DNA of 60,033 nt, counting the filler, from Catajapyx aquilonaris (lineage: Eukaryota): NCBI GenBank assembly GCA_000934665.2. It is 2 parts of 2 records of this genome, joined end to end, with 100 filler letters (N's around TTAATTAATTAA, not from the genome) between each part and the next. Parts side by side here need not be neighbours in the genome. Positions count along the whole stretch, not along the records: positions 30,130 to 60,033 come from JYFJ02004719.1; 1 more part is not named here. One strand, 5' to 3'. Under the pieces are notes generated by a model. The model did no database searches and was not told where the DNA came from. It was given only the letters and a program-made list of their open reading frames with translations. This document shows, one piece after another, positions 2,230 through 53,943 of the stretch (position 1 is the stretch's first letter; every line of letters starts with the position of its first letter). Made by a program: the position numbers and the translations under genes.

Positions 2230-3302
2230 CTGAAAGTGAAGCAAAACTATTAGTCACTGGAACGTTCGCATACAGTTATTGGCATCATGTTCTTACTTAC
2301 CATTCCTTTTACAATTACAAAGTAAAACTACATATCCACTAGCAAAATTATGCTGTGGGAAAAAGAAAGTAAAAGTACATATAAATTACACTTGTGTTCT
2401 TCCAACATTTATTTGCACGCCTCGTTAAAAAAGTTCGAAGTCAGTAAAAAAAACTTCACATCAACATAATCTAAATGGCATTGTGTCAAACTAAAATGAC
2501 AAATAATACTGAGGTTAATACTTGGTTCAGCTAATGTGTAAAAACTACCATGGCAGTCGGCAACAAGTTACTGCAACTGTTACAAAGTATAAAGTACAGA
2601 ACACATAAAAACTGGCGCCTCCTTCATGCTGGTTCTCCAGTCCTCCAGTCTCAAACAAGCCTACACATGTACACACATTAGTTATCTCTGCCAACTAAGG
2701 CACATGAACTAAGGGAACTTGATTCCACAAAACGAGTCTCTTTACTCGTCTCAGTACTCGTATACAACTCACATCCACTTTATTTTGGCAACAAGACTAG
2801 TTATGGTCATTAATTCCCTCCAAACTGACTTTGGACACGTCCTTTCCACAATGTAAGGAATGCTTCTGCATTATGTTCTTTCCCTTTGTCTGCAAATGTT
2901 GGCTCCTCTCACTCTCCCAACTTATAGTAGTAATAACACAAGCGATTATGCCAGGAAAGTAATCGCAAAGCTGCCAATGTCTTACGCTAACATATGAGTT
3001 ACTTAAAAATCACATTTTACAGCTACACATTGTAAGCATGTAAGAGTCTGCCTGATATAATTGTCCTTACTTTCCATCACAGATAACAGTTTCAATAGGC
3101 ACCAACATATATCAATCATATAAACAGAGATGTAAAATAGGGACAACTCTCTTCAGGCAACTATACTTAACAATAGAATCTGAACACTACTGACTAGTAG
3201 GGATGGTCGCTCACTTGAACTGACCAGTAATCGTAAGTTTTGACTGAATTATAACGTCTTTTTTCTTTTTCATTTCCATCAATGGAGTGGAAGGCAACTG
3301 TC

Positions 3303-23310: not shown

Positions 23311-27780
<4,470 letters not shown>

Positions 27781-28060
27781 TGTCTTTTCCTTTTTAGGTC
27801 CGGTTATGGTCTGGTTCCACTCGAAAGGACCACACGAGAGACGGAGCGATGGCGAATAGCACCAGGCGGTACCGGCCACCGGGTGACGTCAGAGTGGGGA
27901 CGAGCCACCTGTCGGAGGGGGAAGGGAAGCTCCAGAAAATAAAAGGTACGGGAAGCTGCAGGACCAGGGAAACTCATGCCAGGGGAGGATAACGAAGACA
28001 GGTCTGCACTAGGAGGTCGCAAGGCCTTCGACGTCGGATCAGGCGGGGGATTACAAAAGC
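27781..28060 (-). promoter_or_regulatory. GC-rich promoter and 5'UTR of GFM1, containing a CRE-like TGACGTCA (27884-27891)
   Basis: CpG-rich island directly upstream of the GFM1 ATG, with TGACGTCA about 105 bp upstream of the ATG. Confidence 0.5.
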
Positions 28061-28868
28061 GGTGGGACAAGATGACAAACAACACCAATGATAGCGTAAG
28101 AATCGGGGTTTCTTATCTTACTTGATGACTTTCTTTGATCATGTCAACTAGGCCTTGTCAAGAGCTAGGCCTTGTCCAAAGGGCCTCTGTGGAACTTTAA
28201 TTACCAGTACCAAGAGCTAGCCAGTACACATGTACGGTACACTTGCAGCAAGTAGCCGTCAATATTTGCAACAATCACAGTCATTTTAATGAAAGTGAAT
28301 TGTAGTTGTCAACTGCTTTTGTTGTGCAGGGACCGGGTCAGGTAGCACGTTTGTCATTATCTTTTACAGCGGAATGATACATCAGTTGCCTTCTCAGCAC
28401 TTTGGCAAAGTCACCTCATGCGATGATTAAAGCTATGTATAGAGTTTAGTTTTAGGATATAAGGTCCTTCAAAACTTTAATTTTGCCAAATGAATCATTA
28501 ATGATATATTGTTTTTGGGCAACTAATTATTCTTATGCTGATGCTTTGGTTGTTTGATATATCATCAAAGAAACATCCATAAAGAAAATTACATTTTGTG
28601 CTGGACATTTATTACACACCTAAGAACTATATGGCCTGAACTTCGCTTTGAGTAGATTATGAAGATTAATATCCTGCTGGAAAATTCGATCCCTGAATTA
28701 AGGTTCAAAGATGAGTCTTCATTTCACAAGAAAGTTAGCTATTATGACGTACTACGGTACAAGAGAATTACTTATCACATTATTTATATAATGACGATCC
28801 CAGTCCCCTCACGGTGACATATCATGATACTATTGCTATCCGGTTTGTGATAAAAATGCTACTGGCAG

Positions 28869-28906
28869 TATAAAGAGGCGGACACCAAAAAGTATCATCC
28901 TCAGTG
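28869..28906 (+). promoter_or_regulatory. TATA box and initiator-like core promoter of the group-7-allergen-like gene
   Basis: TATAAA at 28869-28874 and arthropod Inr-like TCAGT at 28901-28905, about 30 nt upstream of ATG 28931. Confidence 0.65.
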
Positions 28907-28930
28907 TTGTACTACAATCACAATCTTACA

Positions 28931-30029
28931 ATGGGATCAAGTTGGCTTACATTTGCACTTCTGGCTGCTTTTGTGGCTCTAGGTGAGTAGTTACGCGGTT
29001 ACTATTGCTCGCATTTGTTACCAGTGGATCTTTTTCCGCAGCATTTGGACAGAATGGATTTCCAAAGGAGAAATTTATGTACAAACAGGTAACAACATTT
29101 ACTTACATTTATATAGCAAACACTGTAAAATAGCTGAATGATTGGTGATCGGTTTACTGTAGAAGATGAGGCAACTAAAGCCATGTGTGAACAACAAACC
29201 TAAATCATAGACGAATAGTTGAGTAGTTTCTCTATGAAGTGATTTTTCAATGATATTTTATCTACTGACAATACGAAAAAAAAATTATGCCTTGAGACCA
29301 GACAACCCAGGCACATTAGACAGTTATGATAGCTAGTATTTCAATGTAAAATATGTAATTATTAATGATGTAATTTGCAGATGCCCTCTGAGAATGGAGT
29401 TGAAATGTACGAGTTAACTGACGAACAAGACACTCCAGATGCCAATGCATATATGGATGAAGTGTATGCCAAGGCAAAGGAATACATGGACAAGACTGGA
29501 CTCAATGAAGTACCACTTCCAGACAAACTCCTGACGTTCAAGTAAGAATGCCTTTACTTTGTACTTTGATTGAGAAGCTAGAAAATACTCGTGTTGTTAT
29601 TTTTCAGTAAAACGATCTTTGGAAAAGTATTCAAGGGCAAGTTTGGTCTGGAGAACGGATTCATTCGAGGTTTGGATTCCATCCATCGCACAGGAAACTG
29701 CAGCATCAAGACTGACGGAAATGACATATACATTACCGCAATTTCTGGGATTACAAATACTAAATTGGGATATTCAACTATTCTGCAAGTCAATAGCGAG
29801 AGCTTGAGGGGCAGTGTAGCTGGGACAGTGGATCAAGCTTCAGCACGCAACGATGTAATTACACTTTATTGACATTACAAGAGTGATGCACTAGGCATTA
29901 CCATGGAATGGCCATGACCACTGCAAACTGTAACGATGTAAATACTCACAATTATGTTTCAGCTGTATGTTTACGATCGCAAAAATGTCACGCTGATATA
30001 TTTTCATTTGTTGGAGATTGGAAATATCA
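28931..30029 (+). CDS. Secreted group-7 mite allergen (Der p 7)-like lipid-binding protein (TULIP fold); 3' end lost in the assembly gap
   Basis: Exons 28931-28982, 29042-29088, 29381-29541, 29608-29854 and 29963-30029 (runs into the gap); GT-AG and phase-consistent. Signal peptide MGSSWLTFALLAAFVALAFG|Q. NEVPLPDKLLTFNKTIFGKVFKGKFGLENGFIRGLDSIHRTGNCSIK resembles, from memory, the Der p 7 segment DPMKVPD...FERHIG...KGELDMRN..VRGLKQMKRVGDANVK. Confidence 0.8.
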
Positions 30030-31164: not shown

Positions 31165-31799
31165 ATCTGAGAAGAAAAATGATCTGCAAGCTCTCAGATG
31201 TTCATATGGTACAAAACTAACAGTTCTTGGACCAAGTGTCATCTTGGACGAAAATCCTGTCGGACAAAATGTTTTTTAATGGAAATGGTGCGATACCAAC
31301 CTGCGAGATGGGAGACGACGGAATCTGCGCCTCCAATATTAGGGTAATCGTATTGTTGGGACATATGTCGTCCGCAACAATCCTTTTCAGAAACAGTTGG
31401 TGGGAAATGAAAGCATCCCAGCCATGGCGGCAGACCTCTGTGAACTCAATAATTCTTAAAAAATTGGCGCCCTATACATCTGGCTGTAATCAGCAGTACG
31501 TGGATTTGCTGCTGTTAATTGTGACATTCATCCACTCCATGTGTTGGATGGGCGGGTCGACAGTGGTGGCCTCGTATGTAATGTAAATTGACACTTGTCG
31601 TTATGGTAGTTTATTTCTTCTCGGAAGTTTTCGGCCAATGCTGCATGTTGATGGTCCATTTCCCTGGTATACCTTCTGCTCGGAAGGGTGGTGACCTCAT
31701 CACCGATTGCAAGTTGTGTACGTCGAAGCTGGAGTCGAATTGGTCTATTACCCAAGTGTATTTCAGCAGTGCCCTCGTCTTGATTGTTGAATTTGCCAT
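31165..31799 (-). pseudogene. MATH-domain (SPOP/roadkill-like MATH-BTB) pseudogene, copy 1
   Basis: MANSTIKTRALLKYTWVIDQFDSSF...MRSPPFRAEGIPGKWTINM has the MATH signature (YxWxIxxF, SPxF, W). Downstream are HGWDAFIS and NTITLILEA. The frame is broken by deletions, frameshifts and stops. Confidence 0.7.
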
Positions 31800-32029
31800 A
31801 CCTTAAAATGACGTTTGGAATATTATTTAGAGTGTATGTGATTCTGGCTAAACTCAAGTTTTACTTCCTTGTTAATTATACACCTTCCTGGCAGGTCGAC
31901 GACCTAGAGCAAAAAGGACTAGTGAGGGGTCACCCCCCCCCCCTCAAACCCATAATATATGCCACTCGATTTTTTTCTTCATTTCACTGCAAATTAGGCA
32001 TACAATATTGTGTTTGGAGCAGTTAATAT

Positions 32030-32310
32030 AATGGCTATCAAAAGTATTGGCCATGTAAGCAATATCGGGTGGTGTCTTTTATTAGTGGCTATACTGAGTT
32101 ATTTTAAGCAGTTTGGAGTAGTTCCTCTTAGTGGTTATGAAAGTATTAGTCTGGAATAATTCCTGTGTACAGTAGTTGGTATGAAAGCATGAAAGGTTTT
32201 TTGAAGCAGTTTGTAGTGGTTACTGCAATAGGCTATATCGAATGCATTGGCTATTTTAAGCAGATTGGAGTAGTTAGTGTGGTGGTTATCACAATATATT
32301 GGCTATTTTT
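32030..32310. repeat. Degenerate ~50-bp tandem repeat; partial copy at about 37310-37509
   Basis: Recurring motif ggctattttaagcagtttggagtagtt...agtggttat. Confidence 0.55.
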
Positions 32311-36346: not shown

Positions 36347-37001
36347 ATCTGAGAAGAAAAATGATCTGCAAGCTCTCAGATGTTCATATGCTACAAACCT
36401 AAGCAGTTCTTGGACCAAGTGACATTTTGGACGAAAATGCTGTCGGACAAAATGTTTTTTTTTTTTTTTTTTTGGAAATGGTGCGATACCAACCTGCGAG
36501 ATGGGAGACGACGGAAACTGCGCCTCCAATATTAGGGTAATCGTATTGTTTGGACATATGTCGTCCGCAATCCTTTCCAGAAACAATTGGTGGGAAATGA
36601 AAGCACCCCAGCCATGGCGACAGATCTCTGTGAACTCAATAATTCTTACAAAAAATGGCGCCCTATACATCTGGCTGTAATCAGCAGTACGTGGATTTGC
36701 TGCTGTTAATTGTGATATTCATCCACTCCATGTGTTGGATGGGCGGGTCGACAGTGGTGGCCTCGTATGTAATGTAAATTGACGAAATTGACACTTGTCG
36801 TTCTGGTAGTTTGTTCTTCAGCTCGGAAGTTTTCGGCCAATGCTGCATGTTGATGGTCCATTTCCCTGGTATACCTTCTGCTCGGAAGGGTGGTGACCTC
36901 ATCACCGATTGCCAGTTGTGTACGTCGAAGCTGGAGTCGAATTGGTCTATTACCCAAGTGTATTTCAGCAGTGCCCTCGTCTTGATTGTTGAATTTGCCA
37001 T
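36347..37001 (-). pseudogene. MATH-domain (SPOP/roadkill-like MATH-BTB) pseudogene, copy 2
   Basis: ORFs 37001-36681 and 36670-36317 are two frames of one MATH domain (YTWVIDQF, SPPFRAEG, HGWGAFISHQLF, ICPNNTITLILEA). They are followed by RPKCHLVQEL...FFSD, resembling the MATH-to-BTB linker. There is a frameshift between the ORFs, and an unrelated repeat truncates the copy at 36346. Confidence 0.72.
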
Positions 37002-37620
37002 ACCTTATAATGAAGTTTGGAATATTATTTAGCGCGCGCGTGATTCTGGCTAAACTCAAGTTTTACTGGCGTATTTGTCAATTATACACCTTCCTGGCAG
37101 GTCGCTCGACGACCTAGAGCAAAAAGGACTAGGGTGGGGTAACTCCCCTTTTATCCATCATATCGGTCCATCCCACAGACAATTAGCCCATTCCAATGCA
37201 GCTAGGACAGTTCAAAAACAACAATAATCGCCAGAATATATGCCACCCCCCTTTTTTTCTCCATTTCACTGAAAATTAGGCATACAAAATTGCATTTGGA
37301 GCAGTTAATATAATGGCTATCAAAAGTGTTGGCCATGTAAGCAATATCGGGTGGTGTCTTTTATTAGTGGCTGCAACGTACTGAGTTATTTTAAGCAGTT
37401 TGGAGTAGTTCCTCTTAGTGGTTCTGAAAGTATTACAGCCTGGAGTAGTTGCTTTGTACAGTAGTTGGTATGAAAAGGTTTTTTGAAGCAGTTTGTAGTG
37501 GTTACTGCATACACGGAATTTTGTGCTGTGTAAAATAGTTGACTTTTGATGTAAAATCTCATTAAATATTGTTGGTATCAGGCTGCCTTAGTTTTCGTCA
37601 CCATCTACATGCCACTTACC

Positions 37621-37771
37621 GCCCCCCGATGGTATCTCCACCTTATCGTGGTGGTGGGGTTTGCGTTTCTCCCATGACCCCAAGAGCTATGCCGGCGGTA
37701 GCTTCGTCTACTGGTAGGGCCACCCAAGCCGGACAGGTCTTTGGGATAGGAGACAGACTAAGAGAGATGCC
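37621..37771 (+). ncRNA. HDV-like (nested double-pseudoknot) self-cleaving ribozyme, predicted
   Basis: P1 37621-37627/37653-37659 (imperfect). P2 GGTATCTC 37631-37638/GAGATGCC 37764-37771. P3 ACC/GGT (37640-37642/37650-37652). 7-nt L3 TTATCGT. Branched P4 (TCTCC/GGAGA, CCCAA/TTGGG, CCGGC/GCCGG, GGTAG/CTACT). J4/2 GACTAAG carries the candidate catalytic C37758. Confidence 0.7.
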
Positions 37772-37888
37772 AGTCTTTCCTCTCTTCTTTTTCCTCTTCG
37801 TTTCTCCCTCCATCTGTCCCACCTTTGCTTCTTCTTACAGCCAGATAGCCACAGTTGCTTTGGCTTCTTCCAAATAAACCAAACCAAA
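37621..37888 (+). mobile_element. 268-bp non-autonomous retroelement (SINE-like) with an RTE-type ribozyme head, AATAAA and an (AAACC)n tail
   Basis: TSD CCACTTACC at 37612-37620 and 37889-37897. The head CCACCTTATCGTGGTGGTGGGGTTTGCG...GAGCTATGCCGG...GGTAGGGCCACCCAAG..GGACAGGTC resembles, from memory, RTE-clade (BovB/Rex3) 5' ends. The body is pyrimidine-rich, with no retroelement ORF. Confidence 0.85.
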
Positions 37889-38394
37889 CCACTTACCGCT
37901 ATCTGGAGAAGTGACACCTAATTACTTTATGCAAAATATCTTCATATTACCGGCCTCATGTTCCGAGAAGGTCACACATAATGTCTTGGGTTCATTGAAT
38001 CTGACGATTATGCGGAAGGAGGGCTTTTTTGATACTGTATTACGTACGTATAATAATAATATTGTTGAAGTCAATAATGTTGTATTCTTGAAAAATATCG
38101 GCCTTCGTTGACATCGTTGTTGCCATCATGATGTAAGAGGCGAAGGCTGGGGTACTTCTTTGTCTTGCATCTGTTGGCGTCATGAGCATGACATAATGTT
38201 GGTATATGAATTGGTAGGGAGGGTTTCAGGTAACTTCTCATGGACACATTCCGCTGCATTGTGACAGGTATTTCCATTTGAACAGTTCCCATCATTGTGT
38301 GAATAGCAACATTCCTAGCGTATGTCTACATAAGAATATGTGAAGAAGCCCTACCATTTCTAGTAAATGCTTTTGGTGAAATATTTTACTGTTC

Positions 38395-38536: not shown

Positions 38537-41500
38537 CCCTGTATAGCGGGATAAATATGTACAGGGAATGAAGGGAATCGTTAATAATAATAATAGAGAA
38601 TATTTCGTATTATTTGTCATCAAAAATTCGATCTTAACGGTTGATTACGTTTGTATGAGTTGTTTTTGAAGGTGAAATTCTATTATGGCCAAAGTAGTAG
38701 TCTATTCCACAGCCAGTCTTCCTCTTTAGCCGGAGGTCCTGTTGTCGCTCGATGTCCTCTTTCTCCAGCTTGTGAGGTCAACAGCTATTATAGACTGTCA
38801 TCCTCCTTTGTTCTAGGATTCCATGGAATGCCACAATCATACCGTGTTGCTGCCTTCTTTCTGATGGATCCATCTGATGCAGGCCATAGTGTTTTCCAGC
38901 TCCGTGCTGAAGACATCATTTTCCGCTGCAGATGTTGCCTTCATGACTCGAAATGCTGGGAACTATCTTGTCTTCCGTTTGTCTTCACCAGCGGGCAAAT
39001 AACATTACGAGGTAAATGCCTTTGGTGAAATATTATGTTGTATAGGAGACCCTAGCGGGTAAATGTTAGTGCCATTCACATAACCTATAAATAAATAGTA
39101 CGGATACATGAACTAGTGGTAATTGAAGTGACATAAATATGTTACCAAGTGGTGATAATAATTTGATGTCGATGATTACTTCCTAAGGTTGTTTGCTCCT
39201 ATAATAGTTTAATTGTGCACTGTATCAGGAAGCCCGTGTTTTATAACCTGACATTTGTCGTGTTGTCTTTTATTCGTGATGTCTAAAATCAATATTGGGA
39301 GGTCTTTTGGTGCCCTCTCCACAACCTCTGCAGCTGTACTTGTACGAGTAGCTGTTGGCGTTTTAGGGCGAGGCTGGGATCTAACTGTAACTGATTGGAG
39401 AGTGCTTGGTCAGTCTCAAAGTCGCACAAGTGGATGGTCCCTATAGGCAGGTTTTGTCATTACGCAGAAAGTCACTATAGAGAATGATTTGTGGTAGGTG
39501 GAAGTAATGACTGAACGTGTCCCGGCTCTAGAACAAATCTAATTAGATTTGCCAATATTCAGCATATCTTATGTTTGTTATTAGCCTACTGTTTCCATTG
39601 GTTGCAGGAAGAAATCGGTCGGCTTCATTACCTTTGTGCCTTTATTCCGTAACGGTATTGCAATTCAAGTAGAGCTGAATATTGTAGTCATAATAAGCGG
39701 CCCACCGGCGGAGGGTGTTTTGGTACACCCTGGCCTTCTCAATACAACGTGATCATATAATACTGTATCTGATCTCATTAATTTCATGCGATTCAACAGC
39801 AATTTATGTTTTGTGCGCATTGCGATAGAGCATCCTATTTTGCGGCAGTGAATCTTTGGCGTAACACAAATGCAATGATGCAGACTCCTCACATCAAGCC
39901 GGCCATAACTCGACGGTCCTATGGAAGTGTTCAGAAAATTATCATAATTTGTTGGCCTGTGAGAGATGTGCAATTTCAAGGTCATTGCTCGTCACATGGA
40001 ACTTTTTCTCTGTACAATCTGTCGCGTTTGGCCATTGAACATTGTCGAAACCTTTTTGCTCGTCTGTGGTGGAGCCTTTTCCCCAATCTCAATGGGGTTT
40101 GTTTAATATGACGCTACGAATTATGTAACTTATTCATAATTTTCGTAAAATGTTGTGGATGGTGGCCAAGACTTGTGCCCATGAATTCAGTGATGTGAGA
40201 TCAAAGCACCAAACGCTGAACTACTACGACCGTTGTATAATCTTATTTGTCACATCATTATGTTGTCGGTCTTTGTCATCACGGTAGTACAGGTTGTCCT
40301 GCTTCTGTATCGGTTTGTTATGCTTCTGTGGAATGTGTGTGGCGAAGGTGTGAACGTCGCATATGTACGGGGGTGATTGGTTTGCTGAACGTGGCAGACT
40401 TCGTGCGAAATATCTTCATGTTACCTGCTTTGTGTGAATAAAATTTTCTGGTCGTCAAGTGTCCTGGGTTCATTTGCAGATTTGGCAGAAGTATGGCCTT
40501 TTTAGGATTATAATTAGTGACGTCAATAATAATTATATTCTGGGAAAATGGCGATGATCTGACTAATCATGAAGGTATAATAGCTTCTATCACTCGGTGA
40601 ATTAGAATAACCTCGCCTTATCAGTGTCATAGTTGTTCTATGACTTAGACTGGGCGTGCGAGCATACTTATATGGAATCCCGTGCCCTTGAATGACGCTG
40701 ACTTCTTATTCTGTAGGCATCTTACTTTGTCATATTTTATAAAGTGAGGGTCACTTCCTTTGCAGCCTTGTTTCGCAAGATGTAATGTAATTTATTCGTG
40801 CAAATGTTGTCGCAGAGCAAACTGAAGCGAAACTAAAATACGTGTGCCATTTTTCCGTGCCCATTATGTAGTTGTGTTTGGTTGGTCAGGTTTTCTGGTA
40901 TCGGCTAGATTACTGATTTGCAATTAGAAATACTGCACAACCGTTTGTACGCGGTAGATGTCGTGGGCCATAACTCGATGGTGCTCCATGGGTGTTCAGT
41001 TATTTTCTCACACTCTCTTCCGTCTGTGTAATGTGTGTCCTCCTTCCTTGCGGGCAATGGTTAGCCTCGTCGAATATTTTCCCCGCACAACCTGCCCTAT
41101 TTGGCCGTTGACCACATATTGTGCTTTGCAGGAATGGACCGTTACAAATAATATCAGCGTACAATATTCGTACATATGATGAAGGCTCAGAGTATCAATC
41201 TACCTGGGAGAAGAAAAGGAAATGATCGAATATTTTATTATATTGCAATTTATTTACGGCGCTCTACATCATTATTTAGGAGAAGCGACAGTGGGTCATC
41301 AACAAAAAATTAAGAAACAAGGCACCATTGATATAGAAAGAAATCTGAAATATGGAATATCTCCACTCTGAAGGGATCCGCTATGTCACGTCTTATGGAT
41401 TCATGAATTGGCTTTTTCCATTTGGCAATAATGATATTTCCTGCACTATTATGAAAAGCTTTGGCTTCCTGCAGAACGAATGTCTTATCTGCGAGCCAAG

Positions 41501-41635: not shown

Positions 41636-41783
41636 CGGACAGGTCTTTGGGATAGGAGACAGACTAAGAGAGATGCCAGTCTTTCCTCTTTTTTTCCCCC
41701 TCTTCGTTTCTCTCTCCCATCTGTCCCACCTTTAAATCTTCTATAGCCAGATAGCCACAGTTTCTCTTCCTAATAAACCAAAC
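41636..41783 (+). mobile_element. 5'-truncated copy of the 37621-37888 retroelement
   Basis: Aligns to 37730-37888 (cggacaggtctttgggataggagacagactaagagagatgccagtctttcctct ... aataaaccaaac). Flanked by CAATCCT at 41608-41614 and 41784-41790. Confidence 0.85.
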
Positions 41784-44700
41784 CAATCCTGTTTGGGATG
41801 GGGATAATAATAATAGTGTCTTATATTTGTCATTAAAAATCCAATCTTACCGGTTGATTTTTGTTCGTATGCTTTGTTTTTGAAGGTGCTCATTCCATTC
41901 TGATCAGAGTAGGTATCTTCCCGTCCGGTAGTAGGCTATTTTTCATCCACTGCGTTGGTGGTGTATAATATTCCCATCAGTACTGCATGTCAGTTCGTAC
42001 TATTTGTAGACGTACATGAGTAACATGCAGAATATGCATTAATTTGCCAGTGTATTTTCTCTTTGTCAACCTGTGTCAAAGTGGCCATTAATTTAGACTA
42101 TTCATCTTTCTTCCCTGCTGGACACGTCTAGTGAATTTTACACATTACGATATTCGTGGTGTGTCCTGTCAGGAATCCTCAGCTTCAAACGAGACCCATT
42201 CCACTTATAGTGTGGCATGTAAACATGTGGTCAACTAGTATAAACCAGTACAGTGCAATGTTCCTCTGGCATAAATGATATTTAAAAAGGGCGAAAGTCG
42301 CAAAATGCACTCACAATACCGACATACCCACCGCGCCTGTCATAAGTCGATAATGCTCTGGAAGTGTTCAGCAATTATTATTATTCATCATAATTTCTTA
42401 GCCTGTGAGAGGTGCACTTTCAAGGTAATTGCTCGTCATGTCGAACTTTACTCCGTTCAATCTGTCGCGTGTGACCATTGATCAAACCTCTTTGCTCGTC
42501 TGTGGTGGATATTATGGGCTACTGTAATATGACGCTATGAATAATTATTATACTGTATACTCGTATGATTGTATTGTCAGTTGCATGCATGTAAACCTCA
42601 ACTAAATTAGGTTTGGTGAGATAAGCCAGGAAAAATAGTCATCACTGCAAATGGGGTTCTTGGCTGCAGTCATACATCCTCATCCTTCCATCTGTAAGTT
42701 ATTTGTATCCTGGTAGCATAAATTATATGAAGTTGTTTTGTGTATGTACTTCTGTGTATGTAATTTGGACCAATAGCCGTCCTCAGTAGAGTCGCTCACT
42801 TGCTCGACCTTCCTGCTATGACGCCATTCAGGTGATTCTCTGCCTTCAGAATGACATTTTGGTCATGGCACTTCTAAGTGATACATTATAATAATATGAC
42901 TCCTTTCCATTCATGGGGTACAATATAACATGGCTAGCCATTGCACTACTACAACTTGAAGGAACCTTTTTATTAATAACAACTGCATACCAACCGCTCA
43001 TTCTTCAACAATTCGCAACGTTAGGACAATGCAGCAATGCATCCCATTACATTCTGCAGGTACTGTTACTACTGTACCTCATTTCACGCTCAGGCGTAGT
43101 ATGTATGTGTATCATCGTTCTGGCGGTGGCATTCTGGCGCTGGCTCAAGGGAAAGAGCCTCGCACCTCGCCCAGTACAAGTACAGAGAACATTAGTTAGT
43201 ATGCGTTGCGGGTGTCAGTGCGAATGATGAGTTGACAAGCATCACTTTGCTGGGTTGAATTAAGTCCTTGGCTAGGTCGCCGCATGGTGGGGTCGGGGAG
43301 GAAGTCCACATGAGCGACTTTATATCTGCATTGTTCAAAGGAAGATTATGTTTTTGTTTAGTCTAAAAAACACTGCTGGGTTTTGTACTGTCATTAATGT
43401 CGAAGAGATTAATTTTGATTTAATGTACATATACATGTACATGTTACAGATTTAATGGGGCCGAATGTGTCTTTTTCCTGGGCTGGTGAGCGTGTAAAGT
43501 CCGTGTGTGACCTTTTTAAAGTTGTTCTCCAGGGCCCACCCAAAGTGCTGCGTGAATAAATACATATTGACTATTTTAAGTAGCCAATTCCTACTTGCGA
43601 CTGTTACTTGGCTTATTGTATTCAGTTTTCTCAAAATAGCCAATTCTCGTTGGGGCAGACATGTGTCTGGTTTATCAGCCAAGTAGTTTGATCTATTGTC
43701 AATATCCGTCTCAATCCGTTTTCCAGAAGCTGCAGTTCTCGTGGGATGGACCATCAAGAGGACCAGTCTCATCTATAAGTGATTTTCTGGGAGAGTTTCT
43801 GGGAATACATCCATCAAACGAATATTTCAATGATAATGATTTGTGTCTCGTTTGTGAGATTTCATAGTTTCAATTGAATAGTCGTCAGCTGCTTTGGGTA
43901 TTAAAACTCTAGATGACTGCCTGATGCCAGGCGCTTTCATGTTAGATTGGTGATGTTAGTATACTTCTGTGCAACCTTTATTTACCTGGAAGGCATTCCC
44001 CCCAAAAATAGTGGCAAGACATTTCTTCTTTATAAACTGGTTTAAATTCTGCCAGCTTTTTTGTATATGAGTTTATACCATATAGGAAGGATACATATTC
44101 TAGGTGCTTTGGTTGTCTATCAGCCAATAATTATACTTGTAGCCCTTGGATAGGTCGCCTTATGGTCTAGTCTTTGAGGAAGTCCCTCTTGAGAGACTTG
44201 ATGTAGCTGTCTGTATTGTTCAAAGGAAGAGGTCATATTCTCCCTTTGTTTAGTCTATAATACAATGATACATTGCTAGATTTTGTACAAATAGATTTAT
44301 TTGGATATGTACTGTACAAAATATGAATTGCAAATCTTGGAGATCCATTAGCTGCTTCTTGCATGTTGTAAGTGAAACAGGAATGGGTTGTATATCATAA
44401 CTTCGTATAAGGTGTGTTGTGCTTATTCGTTACACAGTGCAGTCTCTATGAAATGACCCCTTAACCATATTGTCTTCAACTTGATGTGTTGGTAATAATA
44501 ACAATAAACCATCCTTTCAAGTTATAGGCATGTGGTGTTTTCAATACCACAACTGTAGGAGTGATCATCACAACGTGATCTTATGATTTCTGATCTCATT
44601 ATATTCCTGCCATTCAAATGCAATTTACGTTGCACTTAATCCAGTTCGAACTACGCTACAATATACAGTATTATCGTACCCTGTTTGACAATGGGCATTT

Positions 44701-45825
44701 ACGTAAATAACGGAACACATCGTGCACCTACCTACTCGTCATTATTTACATGTCGTGGTTGCTACTTGGGGCCTGTCACCTGTAATGATGAGAATGCCGT
44801 CGCTCTCTGCAATACACGGTTATATCAGTTTGTAGAGGATGTTGGTTGATATATGAAATCCAAACACCCAGTAGCATGCTGCGAATAATAGTGCCCTACC
44901 TAGTGTCGATTATTGTAGGATAATTGTAAGCCTCTGCCTGCAGTTATACCGCTTGGTTATGTATAGGTGATGGTGCATGGTAGTGACTAAAGGTGCTACT
45001 TTTCAGACTGTCATTCAGTAATGTAACTTATTCATAATTTTCGTAAAATTTTGTGGATGCTGGCCAAGACTTGTGTCCTTGAATTTAGTGATGTGAGATC
45101 AATGCACCAAACTCGCAATTATACTACTACCGTTGTGTTACCATGTTGAAATATCTCGCATAGTCGCATTATTTAACCTTCGCAGGTTGTTGTCCTGCTT
45201 CCCTTTCGGTTGGTTATGTTCTGGAAGATGTCTGTGGCGAAGGTGTGAACGTCGCATATGTACGAGGGGTCTGCTGAATTTGGCACAGAGACCTATACCA
45301 TATGTGGCAGTGCTTCATGCCAAATATCTTCATGTTACCGGCCTAGTGTGGATAAATTTTTATCGTCGTCAAGTGTCCTGGGTGTAAATGTGCAGATTTG
45401 GAAGAAGTATGGCTTTTTTAGGATCATAATTAGTGTGACGTCAATAATAATTATATCCCGGGAAAATGGCAATGATTTGACTAATCATAAAGGTATAATA
45501 GCTTATCATAATAGTTTTTGTCTTGGCTGCAGTGAGTGTGAAGGAAACATTTCTGCTCCTGCAGGCATCCTCTGTCTCACAGCTTACAGCTTCGATGGAA
45601 TAGTCGTCAGCTGCTTGGGATCAGTTTCATGATTATGTATTGTATGCCAGGCGCTTTCATGCAACCTTTCCTGTTCATCAGTTAGATTGGTGATGTGGAG
45701 TAGACTTCTGTGCAACCTTTATTTGGCTGCTGTCCTGGAAGGCATTCCCCAAATAGTGTCTGTCTTCTTTATCAACTGGTTTAAATTCTTCCAGATTTTT
45801 TTTTTTTTGTATAGGAGTTTATACT

Positions 45826-48191: not shown

Positions 48192-51100
48192 TGCGTGCTC
48201 ATAATACGCGACGAAGTGGTGCTACTGCTGGTTGGTATGTGTTTTTAGGACGGATATTCACCTTTTCCTGCTGGCCTTTCACAATTTTAATTACCTGCAA
48301 TTATTACACATCATTCACGTGTCTCTCAATTAAGATATTGATGATAATGGTGCTTGTGATATGTTCACATCATGTGGCGGAGGACATATGGTCAGTAAGA
48401 AGTCCTCACCGTTCGTAGTGGCAGTGATGTGTTAGCAATACTTCGTGAACCAGAAGAAGTGGCGCACGTTCTGGATGTTGGAACGTATGAACTCACGTAA
48501 TTAATATCTAACGGTTCCACTCATTATGTGTACAAGTGATTTCTCATTGACGTTGCCACGTCAAGGTATATTGGCATGGGCTGACGAAGGCCACCCTGAC
48601 CGCACAGTTGAAGCATTCAAATTTCATCTGCTTAACGGTTGATTTTCGCTCGCTCGTGTGATTTTGAAGATGGTCATTCCATTCTGACGTACGTGTCATC
48701 TTCCCTTCCGGTATAGTAGGATATTTCACAGCTCGAGTTCCGGTCTCCGGTTTCGGACTCTCTTGACTTATTTTCTTTTAAGTTGATTTCGCACTACTGT
48801 TGTTACAGTACGTCGAGTTACGAGGTTTCTCTTAACCTTCATTTATATTTTGTATTCTCTTACCTTAGTAAGAAGTGTAAATCTGGTGCGAGTTAGTGAT
48901 CATGTGTTATGTACACTACGTTAATGAAGTACAGCTTATGACGATTTCCAGGTTGCTGGAAGTATAAGTGTGTTATATTGGGTATTCATGGTTCCTTTTG
49001 CAGGAAGTTATTCAGTTCATTTCACCACAAGTCGTCAGCTGGGGCAAACCCCTTTTTGATTTTGTTCATCCGAACCCTCTATCCACTGAGTCTATTTCTT
49101 TGCCCTTGAGTTGGATTCACCAAGTGTTGAACTTCTCGGACTCGGACAGTAAGATTGAAGAACGGTGGTTATCGATTTCGTTAATTTCTTTGAAATATTC
49201 TTGTGTTATATTATTTTATGTGAAGTACTGGCATTGAATAAGGTGCTGTTTGTGAAGGTTTATTTTTGGTTCATTGGTATTATTTGATGATGTCAATTAA
49301 AGAATGTATATAACTTTTATCAATACATTTGTTTAACTCTTAATTCAATCCGCTGTTCATTCATTTGAGAACCCTTTTTACACTGTGCGATTTTACGCCG
49401 TGTGACAAGACTGTCATAATCGCTGACACTTATTGTCACGCTCGACTGATTGTCGCAATTAGACAGATCATCCTGACAATTATTGCACGATGAAGCAAAG
49501 TAAAGATGACGAAGCTGAGAGTATCGATTTATTGGCCCCACAACTTTTCATCCCTTCCCATACTGTGACGTGTGTGCATCATAGTGCATGCAAGATAGTG
49601 ACAAGGTTACCGTAAGTGTACTGACCTCGTCTCTAGCCTTATCACTCGTGGCAGCCATGTTATGTGCGGTGCTGCTGTGTCTACTTCATCCACGAGCTGG
49701 ACTGGTTCTGGTGTCGTCCGCCTGAAAATGTTGTGGTCCTCTTGTTCTTTCCCACCATCAAGATACAGCGTTATGCCATCTCCATTCGACCAGGTCCCCT
49801 TCGCATGTCGAGGTAAAAAAATAAGATTTCTGCCGACTTGTGCTGCATAAGCAGGAAAAATATAGAAGTACAGTCAGAGAAGAGTAAGCCCAAGCCCCTT
49901 ACCTCACCTCACCGCAGCTGCTATTTTCCTAAAGAAGACACGTTGTATTTTATGGATGTAGTCTTATATTCTACTGCCTGTGCAGCGGATTGGCTGATTC
50001 GAATTTGAATTGATAAGCCATGTGTACAAGATGTATATGTGTATGATCTGCTACAATATATACCGCACGGCCAATAAACGGGGTAGTTGATGGTGGCTGT
50101 GAATACAGAGTAGGCACATCGCATTTGTGGGATGAGGGACGGAGACCCAAGTCTATGTCCCCTTTCTAAATGTTTCATAAGGGACTGTTTCGCATCCGAC
50201 CAGGAGTGGCACTTATATTTGTTACCACAGCCAGCGTTAAAGAACCAAAGTACAAATCCACTAGCTGCTCTGCTTCGTATAATGCAGGGAAGATTTAAAG
50301 TTTCTTCTCTTTTTTTGGTCACTCGTTATAAAGAGAGTTTTAATTCATGTGTACTTTGCATGAAAACATTTGCTCATAAAATATTTGCTATTCTTTTTCG
50401 TTCTAATCTGGCGCATTCATTACGCGAAAACAATCAGCTAATTTGAGCCAGGCCAAGTTGCTTCGCCAAGTTATGAAATGTCTCTATGTGCACCTCTTCA
50501 CTGGGAAATTGATTACTTCTGAATTGGATGGTTTTTTACTTGCAAGAGTGGTTTGATCGTGGACAGCAGGATTACTATTGCGGAGTGGATATGTCAGTTC
50601 ATTTATGACGTCTCTTCTCTACTACCCCAATGGTTGTGCTTTGAGTACCGAGTTTGTAATAGCACATACGACTTGATGTTTATCTCCAAATGTGAGCCTC
50701 TCTCCTTTGAATTACATATGAGTGTTTCTGAACCTCTTGAAGGAGAGATGGAATAGTGCTAGTACTTTTCGCAAGGCGTATTTTGGACATATAAACGTCC
50801 TGGTTTCTATGAGTGCGGCACAAGGCCACTACTGCCATCCGAAGTATTGTCTGGCCGAGTCCGCCCTCCCGTAACTTCTGTTTTGCCTCGTCCTCGCCCA
50901 CCTCCTCCGCCGCTGTATTGTATTTCAGGAAAATGGCGATGATCTGGTCATCTAGCCAATATAATAATAGTGATTGTAATTGATTGTAATAGTAAATACT
51001 GTGTAAGTCTCATTTTCATTGGGGCACAATATACCATGGTTAATAAGCATTGCAATACTATAAGTTGAAGGAACATTTTCATTAATAACTGTATACCAAC

Positions 51101-53897
51101 CAGTCATTCTTCAACAATTTGCCACTATGCGCCTCTCTTAAGACAGCCGGGCCCACCCAGCAGACATTCAATGTATCCCATTACACTCCGCAGGTACTGT
51201 ACGTCATTCACGCTCAGGCGTAGCATGTATGAGTGTCATCAGTTTCCCAGTTCAGGCGCTGGCTCAAGGGAGGGAGCCTCTCAACCCGCCCAGTACAAGT
51301 ACAGAGAATGTACACATAATTTAGTATGCGTTGCGGGTGTCAGTGCGAATGATGAGTTGACAAGCATCACTTTGCTGGATTGAATTAAGTCCTTGGCTAG
51401 GTCGCTTCATGGTCGGGTATAGGGGAGGAAGTCCCCCTGAGCGACCTATTCGTATTGTCCAAAGGGAGATTCTGCTTTCGTTAGTCTGGAAAACACTGAT
51501 TGGTTTTGTACTGTCATAAATGTCGATTTGATGTATAAATTCATATTGACTATTTTAACTACTGTAGCTAATGCCTACTTGCGACAGTTACTTGGCTTAT
51601 TGTATACAGTGTCTCAAAATAGCATATTTTCTTGTTGAGGGAGACACGTGTCCGGTTTATCAGCCAAGTAGGATGACCTCTGGTCAATATCTTTCTCCAT
51701 CGTTGGGGAGCCTCTTTGGGGAACACCACCACCATGTTATGGAATATTGTCAGTCCCATTCTCTTAATTGCATTCAAAAAGAAATTATGTCCATTAAAAG
51801 TTAATTATTAAGGATTGCAAAAGGCAAAAGCTATTTTGTCACGTGGGGAGACACTGCAGGATTTGAGCGCGTGGTATACAGAAATACGGACGTACATAAT
51901 AATTGTGGCCTGTAATTATCGTACAGCACTACTGTACATCGGAAGAGGGAAAACGTTAACAAGTTAATCTTTGGCATGTTATATTGCGATATATGGTTCT
52001 GTATCGTATATTTCAGGAGTGTCGCAATTGCAAGTGTCTATGTGAAAATCAAATTTGCTATCATGATGGTTTCTGGAAGCGCCTGGGACACTGCCTCCTC
52101 GTCCAGCGGATGGTCGTCTGGTGGGATTCACCCGGATTCACCGATTCGGATTTCGTCGTTGTCTTAATCTGGGAGCCAAGTGTCTCGGCGCCGGATTTGG
52201 AATTTTTAAACTTATTTTGTTACAACATTTCATCGCAATTGTACGTATAAGGTAGGCCCCAAATTATGTACTTGAAATTGAATCGAGCAACAAAAGTTTG
52301 ATTGGCATAATGTCCGGCCAATCGGTCACAAGAAATTGCTTCTCTCATGTCGTTTGGAGGACTCAAGACGACTCATGATCATGATGAGGTTTTGATCATG
52401 AGCCATGAAGGTTGCATCTCAGCTTCATCTGATTCGTAGTGAGCTGGTTGTTATCCAGTAGCTCTGTAGTGATTGTCTCCTCCTATAACCAGGATAGGTA
52501 TCTGATCAATCTACGATCCTCTGTTGTTGGGCATTACACGAATCTGATCTTATTATATATTCATGGAAATCGTATTTACCTTCAATTTTTTTACTTCACT
52601 TAAACGAGTATGAACTTGGCTATGATCAACACACATCATTTAATAATGATAGCTTTAATGGCGGAACATGCTGTTCCTCACTAACAGCCTGTCCAGCAAT
52701 GTAGCTGTGACGAGACATGACACGGCTTAATGAGTCATGTGTTGTGGTAGTTAATGTAGTGGTAGCTTAATGCACATACGGTCTATAACAAAAATGCATG
52801 TTATATTCAGTGTGATATAGGCAACTTCTCTCAATCACCATACTGATGTCGCTCCTGCAATATATTCAATACGCTATGCAGTTATGAACGTTCGAGAATT
52901 ATTATCCCCCGTCGTCATTCACACTGATGTTGTCATATAGATTGGATACCTTACTTAAATTATTTAAATTAAATTAAATGCTCTTGAGTTGTGTTACGGT
53001 TTGCTTCCGTTTTCCGTTTCCGTGTTCCGGTTTTAGTCCGACTCGAAGTATACTTATGGAATCCCATGTCCTTGAGTGACGCTGCCTTCTTATTCTGGAG
53101 GGCATCCTATTTTGTCATCATATATTCTATTTCCATGCCGCCTGCAAGCACTCCGGTTCAACTCCCCTTTTTGCCAGTGTGAAGTGTTGGTTCCATTTTT
53201 AGGGACCAATTTGGGGCTGCATATCATACAGTATATCACATTTCGCAGGAAATTGCTTACTCCGGGCAGGACACCGTCAATTTATTATGAATGTTTGATC
53301 TTGAGCCATGATGGTTGTGCTCAATTGGTTCTACAGTGATTGTCTCCTTGTATATAAGCAGGATAGGAAGTAATGTGACTGATCTGAGCTGGTTGTTTTC
53401 CGGTAGCTATGCAGTGATTGTCTCCTTTTATAACCAGGAAACCACTGACGTAATTAATGTTCTTCTTGTATCCTGGTAGAATATTCATCCTCAGGGCAAC
53501 CACTTATTTGTGCCCGTCCTTCTGAGTCATACTGCGTCTCTTCTCTAGCTTTCTGCAGAGTGGCATTTTGGGCATGAAACTGTTGAGCACCAAATAATAA
53601 GTCATAATTAGTAGTAAGAGAACGACTTTTTGATACCAGGTTTCATGAAATATTACACTACCATATCATCTTAGGACGGCATCTCTCGTGAACCTTTCGT
53701 GAACCATTGCCATCCAGGCATCCACCTCAGCACCACATCAATACCCTCGTGAATCAAATCCACTTCATCCGGTATCTGCAATTCTAATAGCCGCATCTCC
53801 TCTAGAGCATCCATAGAGATCCATTAAGTGGAATTTTAATTTTCAGCTTTCATCCGTTTTGCTTTTGTAGCAACAATTGAGTCCTAATGTGCTCGTC

Positions 53898-53943
53898 GTT
53901 TTTTGTCCTCACTATGGTTTTTGTCCTCACTATGGTTTTTGTC
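53898..53943. repeat. 18-bp tandem repeat (about 2.5 copies)
   Basis: (tttttgtcctcactatgg)2 followed by tttttgtc. Confidence 0.8.

What the first reader, a model, noticed from the sequence alone, without database searches (positions are those of the whole stretch)
37612..37899. Ribozyme-headed short retroelement: a 268-bp SINE-like element that begins at the predicted cleavage site of an HDV-like ribozyme
Seen in sequence: a 9-bp TSD (CCACTTACC) brackets a non-coding element ending in AATAAA and (AAACC)n. Its first ~150 nt fit the HDV/CPEB3 double-pseudoknot order: P1 GCCCCCC, P2 GGTATCTC, P3 ACC, L3 UUAUCGU, P3' GGU, P1' GGUGGGG, UU, a large branched P4, J4/2 GACUAAG and P2' GAGAUGCC. G1 of P1 coincides with the 5' boundary set by the TSD. 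No Pol III A/B boxes were seen. Established: HDV-like ribozymes process the 5' ends of R2 and RTE-clade non-LTR elements, and R2-derived short internally deleted elements keep them. Inference: this is a promoter-less non-autonomous family that cuts itself out of host read-through transcripts and borrows an autonomous LINE's machinery, and it may be undescribed in this lineage. L3 has A at the P1.1 position opposite U, where I recall G-C in BovB-like heads, which would be a covariation. P1 in this copy has a C-U mismatch (and G1-G or G1-U depending on register), so this copy may be slow or inactive.
Basis: partly seen in the sequence, partly recalled or inferred. Interest (0 to 1): 0.88.

Follow-up and report, generated by a model that had tools for sequence, protein, structure and literature searches.

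The report
Ribozyme-headed short retroelement in arthropod
This is one copy of a very abundant short jumping element whose first 150 bases fit the fold of a hepatitis-delta-type self-cutting RNA starting exactly at the element's first base, a design already known from a few other retroelements, and actual self-cutting remains untested.

Summary
A 268-bp non-coding element (37621-37888) lies between exact 9-bp direct repeats and ends in AATAAA plus (AAACC)n.

It is a real repeat family. A 5'-truncated copy lies at 41636-41789. About 1,200 contigs per DNA run lie on it, at summed depth roughly 1,000 times or more the single-copy flank.

The HDV-like fold is unlikely to be chance. A descriptor built on published core features hit 7 starts in 120,066 positions, and this was the only one with P2 longer than 6 bp. 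Shuffles anchored at the 5' end matched 4 of 20,000 times, and 0 of 20,000 with P2 of 8 bp or more.

Against it:
- Rfam gives no hit.
- P1.1 is a single A-U pair.
- P1 has a C-U mismatch.
- J4/2 has two extra bases.
- No covariation or cleavage data could be obtained.

Ribozyme-headed non-autonomous non-LTR elements are already described (R2 SIDEs, NARTc/SIDER). I rate this a new member of a known kind, of moderate interest. A by-sequence look-up of earlier scan notes found nothing.

The parts
37612..37620 (+). 5' target-site duplication CCACTTACC. The exact match extends 2 nt into the element (GC), which looks like microhomology.
37621..37888 (+). 268-bp non-coding, non-autonomous non-LTR (SIDE/SINE-like) element
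   Evidence: Depth of laid contigs rises from 0 left of 37613 and falls to the single-copy level right of about 37898.
37621..37627 (+). P1 5' strand GCCCCCC. The predicted cleavage is 5' of G37621. Six of 7 positions pair with 37654-37660 (G37621-U37660 wobble, C37626-U37655 mismatch).
37628..37630 (+). J1/2 (GAU). U37630 can add a ninth P2 pair with A37772.
37631..37638 (+). P2 5' strand GGUAUCUC, 8 bp with 37764-37771 (one U-G)
   Evidence: Also present in the unconstrained MFE fold.
37639..37642 (+). P3 5' strand CACC
37643..37649 (+). L3 UUAUCGU. U at position 1 and C, G at positions 5 and 6, as in the published HDV descriptor. A37645 is the only P1.1 partner.
37650..37653 (+). P3 3' strand GGUG
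37654..37660 (+). P1 3' strand GUGGGGU
37661..37662 (+). P1.1 3' positions UU. U37661 pairs with A37645. U37662 faces U37644 (mismatch).
   Evidence: Sequence read against the descriptor.
37663..37756 (+). Large branched P4 domain (94 nt)
   Evidence: Most common family variants here keep the predicted pairs.
37757..37763 (+). J4/2 ACUAAGA with the candidate catalytic C37758 (CUAA), followed by two extra bases GA before P2'
37764..37771 (+). P2 3' strand GAGAUGCC. G37769 is A in about 54-66% of laid depth in X1-X3, turning U-G into U-A.
37788..37792 (+). Internal TTTTT run on the sense strand (7 T in the second copy). It would act as a Pol III terminator.
37839..37865 (+). Hairpin just upstream of the tail, a candidate recognition element for the partner reverse transcriptase (inferred)
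   Evidence: MFE -10 kcal/mol, z -1.15, not significant. One search shows loose ends at 37839, suggesting the last ~50 nt are shared with other sequences.
37873..37878 (+). AATAAA, also present in the second copy
37879..37890 (+). Simple-repeat tail CC(AAACC)2. The last CC overlaps the 3' target-site duplication.
   Evidence: One search shows loose ends behind 37880, 37890 and 37891.
37889..37897 (+). 3' target-site duplication CCACTTACC
41636..41789 (+). Second copy, 5'-truncated inside P4. It is 86% identical over element positions 119-279 of the query 37612-37899 and has the same J4/2-P2' and AATAAACCAAACC end.

Best explanation
This is one inserted copy of a high-copy, promoter-less, non-autonomous non-LTR retroelement of the SIDE type. 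It consists of a ribozyme head joined to a LINE-type 3' end, in an arthropod genome.

Proposed mechanism (steps 1, 3 and 4 are inferred, not shown):
1. Source copies are transcribed as part of longer host or read-through transcripts (inferred).
2. The first ~151 nt fold into an HDV-like nested double pseudoknot: P1 37621-27/37654-60, P2 37631-38/37764-71, P3 37639-42/37650-53, a one-pair P1.1 (A37645-U37661) and a large P4. The fold as a fit to the sequence is shown. Its formation in RNA is inferred.
3. C37758 in J4/2 acts as the general acid. The RNA cuts itself 5' of G37621, which creates the element's exact 5' end (inferred by analogy).
4. A partner LINE's reverse transcriptase then recognises the 3' hairpin and the (AAACC)n tail and copies the RNA into a nicked target by target-primed reverse transcription. 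This gives the 9-bp target-site duplication, microhomologies at both junctions and frequent 5' truncation. The insertion hallmarks are shown. The partner is inferred.

This particular copy carries a C-U mismatch in P1 and may itself cut poorly.
For: Element type:
- Exact 9-bp (11-bp with GC) duplication, AATAAA and an (AAACC)n tail.
- A 5'-truncated second copy in the window.
- 1,177, 1,293 and 1,215 contigs of three DNA runs of one sample, and 55 contigs of a run from a second study, lie on the element.
- In X1 the summed word depth is about 49,000-53,000 over the head (37639-37664) and about 88,000 over 37743-37768, against 26.8 on the right flank. The tool warns that this is not a copy number.
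- No Pfam domain in 43 ORFs of 60 aa or more within 33-43 kb.

Fold:
- All helices are present. P2, P3 and P4 also appear in the unconstrained MFE fold.
- Positions match the published descriptor (G1-Y, L3 U19..C23 G24, J4/2 C..RA; PMC6326823 section 16): G37621-U37660, U37643, C37647, G37648, C37758, A37760, A37761.
- Window scan with that descriptor: 7 start positions at 5 loci in 120,066 positions on both strands. Only this locus has P2 longer than 6 bp (9 bp).
- 20,000 dinucleotide-preserving shuffles of 37621-37795, anchored at offsets 0-2: 4 hits, and 0 with P2 of 8 bp or more.

5' end:
- Loose ends of other copies read an A-run followed by GCCCAT or GCACAT before 37627 (1-3 contigs). 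These copies also begin with GC at the position of 37621, so the GC belongs to the element.

Family variation (with the pairing):
- Of 7 positions in predicted pairs with variants at 5% or more in at least one of X1-X3, 6 keep a standard pair: 37674 A>G, 37702 C>T, 37722 A>G, 37729 C>T, 37730 C>T, 37769 G>A.
- No variant row is listed for 37626-37673 or 37747-37768.

Precedent:
- Active L1Tc ribozymes have a single-pair P1.1 (PMC3185411, passages).
- One quarter of R2 ribozymes have 1-2 P1 mismatches (PMC3774820, section 16).

Against Pol III:
- Internal TTTTT.
- No tRNA or other small-RNA match.
Against: - No Rfam HDV/CPEB3/drz family reaches even E=10 on 2.5 kb or on 191 nt, and there is no gathering-level hit in the window.
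- The MFE of the head is no better than shuffles (z -0.14).
- The published descriptor's two G-C pairs of P1.1 are not met (one A-U plus a U-U mismatch).
- J4/2 reads CUAA rather than CRRA and has two extra bases before P2'.
- P1 has a C-U mismatch, and the C-run/G-run allows several registers.
- My descriptor tolerances (P3 3-4 bp, L3 6-9 nt, one P1 mismatch, a 7-nt window for CNRA) were set after seeing the candidate, so the p-values are optimistic.
- The looser descriptor hits 91 starts in the window.
- The pair-preserving pattern is weak evidence. The structure was predicted from this same sequence, C>T and A>G always preserve pairs, and 6 of 7 is not significant.
- The absence of variant rows in the core may partly reflect lower and clipped coverage at the 5' end. 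Four rows of that table were not shown.
- Depth in the first bins (3,200-3,500 at 37613-37625, 27,500-29,600 at 37626-37638) is lower than a uniform 5' end at 37621 would give. This may be an artefact of contigs breaking at repeat edges.
- No RNA data, no cleavage assay, no partner LINE.
Confidence: 0.7

Rival explanations
1. Ordinary short retroelement whose HDV-like fold is a coincidence. On this reading the 5' end is a transcription start (internal Pol II or atypical Pol III promoter) and nothing is cleaved.
For: - No Rfam hit.
- MFE not better than shuffles.
- The loose descriptor is common (91 starts in 120 kb).
- The C-run/G-run makes P1 easy to draw in several registers.
- P1.1 and J4/2 deviate from the published descriptor.
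- A weak A-box-like match with 2 mismatches lies at 37644.
Against: - The literature-based descriptor hits this 5' end and only 4 other loci in 120,066 positions, all of which have P2 of 5-6 bp.
- 0-4 of 20,000 anchored shuffles match.
- An internal T5 run would stop Pol III.
- The best B-box match has 3 mismatches.
- No small-RNA-derived head.
Confidence: 0.13
2. The head descends from a real HDV-like ribozyme (for example from the 5' UTR of a parent LINE), but the family as amplified no longer needs or performs cleavage. On this reading the structure is kept for another role, such as binding the partner's protein or RNA stability, or is simply young and undecayed.
For: - The weak P1.1 (one A-U), the P1 mismatch and the longer J4/2 in this copy could lower activity.
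- No variant is listed at these sites, so they may be family-wide.
- Many laid contigs are 95% or more alike (598 of 1,177 in X1), so conservation of the core may only reflect youth.
- The R2 protein is reported to bind a pseudoknot within its ribozyme region (review PMC6765202, passage).
Against: - The element's first base coincides with G1 of P1 here, and other copies also begin with GC at that position. That is what cleavage predicts.
- Active ribozymes with a one-pair P1.1 and with P1 mismatches are documented.
Confidence: 0.12
3. Canonical Pol III SINE with an unrecognised small-RNA-derived head.
For: - Short, very abundant, with a LINE-like tail.
- A weak A-box-like string at 37644.
Against: - No tRNA, 5S, 7SL or snRNA match.
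- No B box with 2 or fewer mismatches in the element.
- T5 (T7 in copy 2) in the middle of the sense strand.
Confidence: 0.05

Closest known systems
R2 SIDEs and R2/R1 hybrid SIDEs of Drosophila (Eickbush and Eickbush 2012, PMC3414825; abstract and passages read)
   Same: - Short internally deleted non-LTR elements.
[quoted passage not shown]
- They are not Pol III transcribed and are processed out of a co-transcript.
   Different: - SIDEs sit at fixed sites in 28S rDNA, are low in copy number and ride on Pol I transcripts.
- This family is dispersed (random-looking target, 9-bp duplication), has summed depth about 1,000 times or more the single-copy level, and has an (AAACC)n tail.
- No parent LINE is known here.
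NARTc/RIME/SIDER elements with the L1Tc ribozyme (Pr77) in trypanosomatids (PMC3185411, PMC4035085; passages read)
   Same: - Dispersed, abundant non-autonomous relatives of a LINE.
- They carry an HDV-like ribozyme in their first bases that cleaves at +1.
- P1.1 is only one base pair.
   Different: - The host is a protist with polycistronic transcription.
- The same 77 nt also act as a promoter.
- The ribozyme is compact (77 nt), not about 151 nt with a 94-nt P4.
- No sequence relation was tested.
[quoted passage not shown]
   Same: - Promoter-less non-LTR elements released from co-transcripts by a 5' HDV-like ribozyme.
- The review notes hundreds of copies with conserved downstream and varying upstream sequence. 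It also says some non-autonomous SINEs use hammerhead or HDV-like ribozymes.
   Different: - Those are mostly autonomous LINEs or unclassified copies.
- Whether this family derives from an RTE-type LINE is unknown.
- None of the Rfam drz/HDV/CPEB3 models matches it.
Published HDV ribozyme descriptor (PMC6326823, section 16) and the R2 ribozyme consensus (PMC3774820, section 16)
   Same: - Order of helices.
- G1-Y first pair.
- 7-position P1.
- L3 with U at position 1 and CG at positions 5-6.
- C..AA in J4/2.
- P2 of 5 bp or more.
   Different: - P1.1 is A-U plus a U-U mismatch instead of two G-C pairs.
- The second J4/2 base is U, not R.
- There are two extra bases before P2'.
- P3 can be 4 bp.
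- P1 has one mismatch.

Membership tests
HDV-like self-cleaving ribozymes | Nested double pseudoknot in the order P1-J1/2-P2-P3-L3-P3'-P1'-P1.1-P4-J4/2-P2', with the cleavage site at the first base of P1 | tested here: met
   Significance.
HDV-like self-cleaving ribozymes | G1-Y first pair of P1 and a P1 of about 7 bp | tested here: met
   G37621-U37660, with 6 of 7 positions paired (C37626-U37655 mismatch). [quoted passage not shown]
   L3 UUAUCGU has U37643, C37647 and G37648 at positions 1, 5 and 6.
HDV-like self-cleaving ribozymes | P1.1 of two G-C pairs between L3 and the bases after P1' | tested here: not met
   Only A37645-U37661 pairs. U37644 faces U37662. One-pair P1.1 is documented in active L1Tc ribozymes and in CPEB3/HDV modelling.
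HDV-like self-cleaving ribozymes | J4/2 with catalytic C followed by R-R-A directly before P2' | tested here: inconclusive
   C37758-U-A-A, then G-A before P2'. The C and the two A are present. The second base is U, and the joint is 2 nt longer than the descriptor.
HDV-like self-cleaving ribozymes | Match to a curated covariance model (Rfam HDV, CPEB3, drz families) | tested here: not met
   No such hit at E up to 10 and none at gathering level. These models do not encode the pseudoknots or a 94-nt P4.
HDV-like self-cleaving ribozymes | Compensatory changes in P1-P4 among relatives | tested here: inconclusive
   Only unlinked variant frequencies were available. Six of 7 common variants in predicted pairs keep pairing. 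No aligned copies could be fetched.
HDV-like self-cleaving ribozymes | Mg2+-dependent self-scission that depends on the J4/2 cytosine | not testable with these tools
   This is a bench assay. No RNA run was listed for this DNA.
Non-autonomous non-LTR retroelement (SIDE/SINE-like) | Target-site duplication, 3' simple-repeat or A-rich tail, 5'-truncated copies, many dispersed copies, no ORF | tested here: met
Non-autonomous non-LTR retroelement (SIDE/SINE-like) | Shares its 3' end with an autonomous partner LINE | not testable with these tools
   No genome is held and no RT domain is in the window. The only hint is loose ends at 37839, where other sequences join the last ~50 nt.
Canonical SINE (Pol III transcribed) | Head derived from tRNA, 5S or 7SL with an internal A/B-box promoter and no internal T-run terminator | tested here: not met
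   No small-RNA match. Best A box has 2 mismatches and best B box has 3. TTTTT lies at 37788-37792.

The most novel reading that the evidence does not exclude
A dispersed SIDE-type family, with depth about 1,000 times or more the single-copy level, has colonised an arthropod genome using an active HDV-like ribozyme with an unusual core: a one-pair A-U P1.1, a lengthened J4/2 and a 94-nt branched P4. The genome would then carry on the order of a thousand self-cleaving sites. Sense-oriented copies in introns and UTRs could cut host transcripts. That would make it one of the most abundant ribozyme families known in an animal and a natural test set for the sequence limits of the HDV core.
Probability: 0.3. 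Interest if true: 0.6.

Novelty: new member of a known kind. Interest (0 to 1): 0.45.

Why it matters
If the head cleaves, it would explain how an abundant promoter-less short element gets a precise 5' end without Pol III. It would extend the SIDE design from a few rDNA-bound fly elements and trypanosome NARTc/SIDER to a dispersed high-copy family in an arthropod. It would also supply many natural variants of an HDV-like core with a weak P1.1. It may further matter for annotation, since such elements are neither classical SINEs nor LINE fragments, and for host RNA processing wherever copies lie in the sense orientation in transcripts.

Tried and rejected
- **Whole-genome search:** no genome is held for this window.
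- **Public contig scans for other copies:** four scans with three patterns taken from the head, the J4/2-P2' block and the start of P4 found nothing in metagenome contigs or genome contigs. Two further scans of viral contigs also found nothing.
- **Earlier scan notes:** look-ups by sequence, place and words gave nothing on this family.
- **Sequencing runs:** no RNA holder was listed. All four runs laid were contigs, so starts, strands and RNA ends could not be read. The left flank 37561-37612 had no cover in any run, which proves nothing.
- **Empty-site paralogue:** the upstream repeat (36347-37509 versus 31165-32227) ends about 100 bp before the insertion, so no empty site is available.
- **Rfam at permissive thresholds:** only chance-level hits (ilvH, mir-766, chrB-a, SOX2OT).
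- **CpG argument:** three CpGs in the head have no variant rows, while five elsewhere do. I dropped this. Most of those rows pass the 5% threshold only in the low-depth run X5, which barely covers the head.
- **Core versus non-core count of variants at 5% or more:** 1 in 53 nt against about 13 in 210 nt. This is not significant.
- **Primary papers:** Ruminski 2011 and Webb 2009 are not held.
- **A paper search for an (AAACC)n-tailed LINE** gave nothing useful.
Full report
**What is in the sequence.** CCACTTACC occurs at 37612-37620 and again at 37889-37897. The match continues through GC on both sides, giving 11 exact bases, so the duplication alone leaves the 5' edge open by 2 nt. Between the repeats lie 268 bp (37621-37888) with no recognisable coding content. 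No Pfam family was found in 43 stop-to-stop ORFs of 60 aa or more between 33 and 43 kb. None was found in this neighbourhood among 43 ORFs of 110 aa or more across the whole window either. The element ends in AATAAA (37873-37878) followed by CC AAACC AAACC. The last CC doubles as the first two bases of the 3' duplication, the kind of tail/target microhomology expected from target-primed reverse transcription.

**It is a real, abundant repeat family.**
- A second copy lies at 41636-41789. It is 86% identical, truncated at its 5' end inside the proposed P4, and has the same AATAAACCAAACC end.
- No whole genome is held, so I laid public contigs on 37561-37950. In three DNA runs of one sample, 1,177, 1,293 and 1,215 contigs lie on the element. 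In a run of a second study, 55 do.
- In X1 the summed word depth is about 49,000-53,000 over 37639-37664 and about 88,000 over 37743-37768, against 26.8 on the right flank. The tool warns that this sum is not a copy number. It still points to roughly 1,000 or more copies, about half of them reaching the head.
- Of the 1,177 X1 contigs, 255 are 99% or more alike, 343 are 95-99%, 361 are 90-95% and 218 are below 90%.
- Depth is zero left of 37613 and single-copy right of about 37898, which fits the edges set by the duplication.
- Loose ends behind 37880, 37890 and 37891 (9-15 contigs each) place the family's 3' end in the tail.
- Loose ends before 37627 (1-3 contigs) read an A-run followed by GCCCAT or GCACAT. 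Those copies also begin with GC at the position of G37621, so the GC belongs to the element and not to the duplication.

**The proposed fold.** In the register with the canonical G-U first pair, the segments are as follows.

| Segment | Coordinates | Note |
|---|---|---|
| P1 | 37621-27 with 37654-60 | 6 of 7 paired; C37626-U37655 mismatch near the top |
| J1/2 | 37628-30 | |
| P2 | 37631-38 with 37764-71 | 8 bp; a ninth pair U37630-A37772 is possible |
| P3 | 37639-42 with 37650-53 | |
| L3 | 37643-49 | UUAUCGU |
| P1.1 | A37645-U37661 | only one pair; U37644 faces U37662 |
| P4 | 37663-37756 | 94 nt, branched |
| J4/2 | 37757-63 | ACUAAGA, with C37758 |

P2, P3 and P4 appear in the unconstrained MFE fold. 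Forcing the nested part costs 4.6 kcal/mol (-49.2 against -53.8). The P1 duplex alone is worth -8.6 kcal/mol, so the pseudoknot is competitive.

**Comparison with published requirements.** A published HDV descriptor fixes G1-Y35, two G-C pairs of P1.1, U19, C23 and G24 in L3, and C-R-R-A in J4/2 (PMC6326823, section 16).
- Met here: G1-U; U, C and G at L3 positions 1, 5 and 6; and the catalytic C followed two bases later by A-A.
- Not met: the two G-C pairs of P1.1; the purine after the C (it is U); and J4/2 carries two extra bases before P2'.
- R2 ribozymes have a P1 of 6-7 bp with 1-2 mismatches at the top in about a quarter of elements, and a P2 of at least 5 bp (PMC3774820, section 16).
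- The fast L1Tc ribozyme has a P1.1 of a single pair (PMC3185411, passages).
- The deviations therefore lower confidence in activity but are not disqualifying.

**Is it more than chance?**
- A loose descriptor (P1 6 of 7 or better, P2 of 8 bp or more, P3 3-4 bp, L3 6-9 nt, CNRA near P2') hits 91 start positions on the two strands of the window. Topology alone is cheap.
- Adding the literature features (G1-Y, L3 U...CG) and relaxing P2 to 5 bp or more leaves 7 starts at 5 loci in 120,066 positions. This locus has a 9-bp P2 and the others have 5-6 bp.
- In 20,000 dinucleotide-preserving shuffles of 37621-37795, allowing starts at offsets 0-2, the loose descriptor matched 37 times. The literature descriptor matched 4 times, and 0 times with P2 of 8 bp or more.
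- The start of the hit coincides with an element edge defined independently by the duplication and the depth profile.
- My tolerances were chosen after seeing the candidate, so these figures are optimistic. Even a hundred-fold correction leaves the coincidence unlikely.

**Evidence against.**
- Rfam gives no HDV, CPEB3 or drz hit at E up to 10 on 2.5 kb or on 191 nt, and nothing at gathering level in the whole window. These models carry no pseudoknot and no long P4.
- The head's MFE is ordinary (z -0.14).

**Family variation (pairing).**
- Seven positions in predicted pairs have variants at 5% or more in at least one of X1-X3. Six of them keep a standard pair:
  - 37674 A>G opposite U37747
  - 37702 C>T opposite G37719
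  - 37722 A>G opposite U37699
  - 37729 C>T opposite G37695
  - 37730 C>T opposite G37694
  - 37769 G>A opposite U37633 (about 54-66% of depth; turns the U-G of P2 into U-A)
- 37731 G>A (2-6%) breaks a pair unless it travels with 37693 C>T, its partner. Linkage cannot be seen.
- No variant row is listed for 37626-37673 or 37747-37768.
- This is only suggestive. The structure was predicted from this sequence, C>T and A>G always preserve pairs, 6 of 7 is not significant, four rows were not shown, and the extreme 5' end is poorly covered. Depth there is 3,200-3,500 at 37613-37625 and 27,500-29,600 at 37626-37638, probably because contigs break at repeat edges.
- A loose-end consensus at 37678 (12-13 contigs in each of X1-X3, 2 in X5; agreement about 0.6) suggests a subfamily with a different P1'/P3' strand. 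That gives a concrete covariation test, but I could not see its 5' half.

**Transcription.** No tRNA or other small-RNA head is detected. The best A-box and B-box matches have 2 and 3 mismatches. A TTTTT run (37788-37792; seven T in copy 2) would terminate Pol III inside the element. This fits a promoter-less element carried on longer transcripts, as proposed for RTE and Baggins elements (review PMC6765202, passages). The hairpin at 37839-37865 just before the tail (not significant on its own), together with loose ends at 37839, hints at a 3' module shared with other sequences, possibly the partner LINE. No RT domain is in the window.

**What is known already.** R2 SIDEs and R2/R1 SIDEs consist of an HDV-like ribozyme plus a LINE 3' end. 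They are not Pol III transcribed and are cut from a co-transcript (PMC3414825). NARTc and SIDER carry the L1Tc ribozyme (PMC3185411, PMC4035085). A review states that hundreds of intergenic HDV-like copies with conserved downstream sequence exist, and that some SINEs use hammerhead or HDV-like ribozymes (PMC6765202). My paper searches showed no description of a dispersed arthropod family of this build. The primary survey papers (Webb 2009, Ruminski 2011) were not readable and may contain one.

**Verdict.** The element is almost certainly a non-autonomous non-LTR retroelement. Its head is probably (about 0.7) a genuine HDV-like ribozyme that sets the 5' end, although this copy may be impaired. 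Cleavage, covariation, uniform 5' ends and the partner LINE remain open. It is a new member of a known kind.

Noticed in passing
window 36347-37509 and 31165-32227: A repeat of about 1.1 kb in two pieces (805 bp at 91% identity and 286 bp at 89%) occurs twice, 5.2 kb apart. One copy ends about 100 bp upstream of the insertion. It holds open frames without any Pfam match, so it is probably another mobile element.
   Followed up: partly
window 24126-26742, minus strand: Exons of an elongation-factor-G-like GTPase gene (Pfam GTP_EFTU, EFG_III, EFG_IV; E about 1e-22 each). It was the only clear host gene found among the ORFs scanned.
   Followed up: no
window 37776-37840: The element's 3' half is a long pyrimidine tract ending in TTACAG, which resembles a 3' splice acceptor. 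The frame 37566-37877 is open for 103 codons with no Pfam match. Sense copies in introns might be exonised.
   Followed up: no
window 40123-40586 vs 45021-45504; 39898-40073 vs 42335-42509; 38584-38697 vs 41804-41912: Several other diverged repeat pairs (77-79% identity) surround both copies of the element, so the region is repeat-rich. The last pair lies just downstream of the second copy.
   Followed up: no
window 53900-53943: A perfect 18-bp tandem repeat (2.4 copies). It lies next to one of the weak chance hits of my HDV descriptor (53867/53870, P2 only 6 bp).
   Followed up: no
window 37561-37612: The left flank of the insertion had no contig cover in any of the four runs, while the right flank had single-copy depth in X1-X3. 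I have no explanation. The tool notes that a filter drops some records.
   Followed up: no
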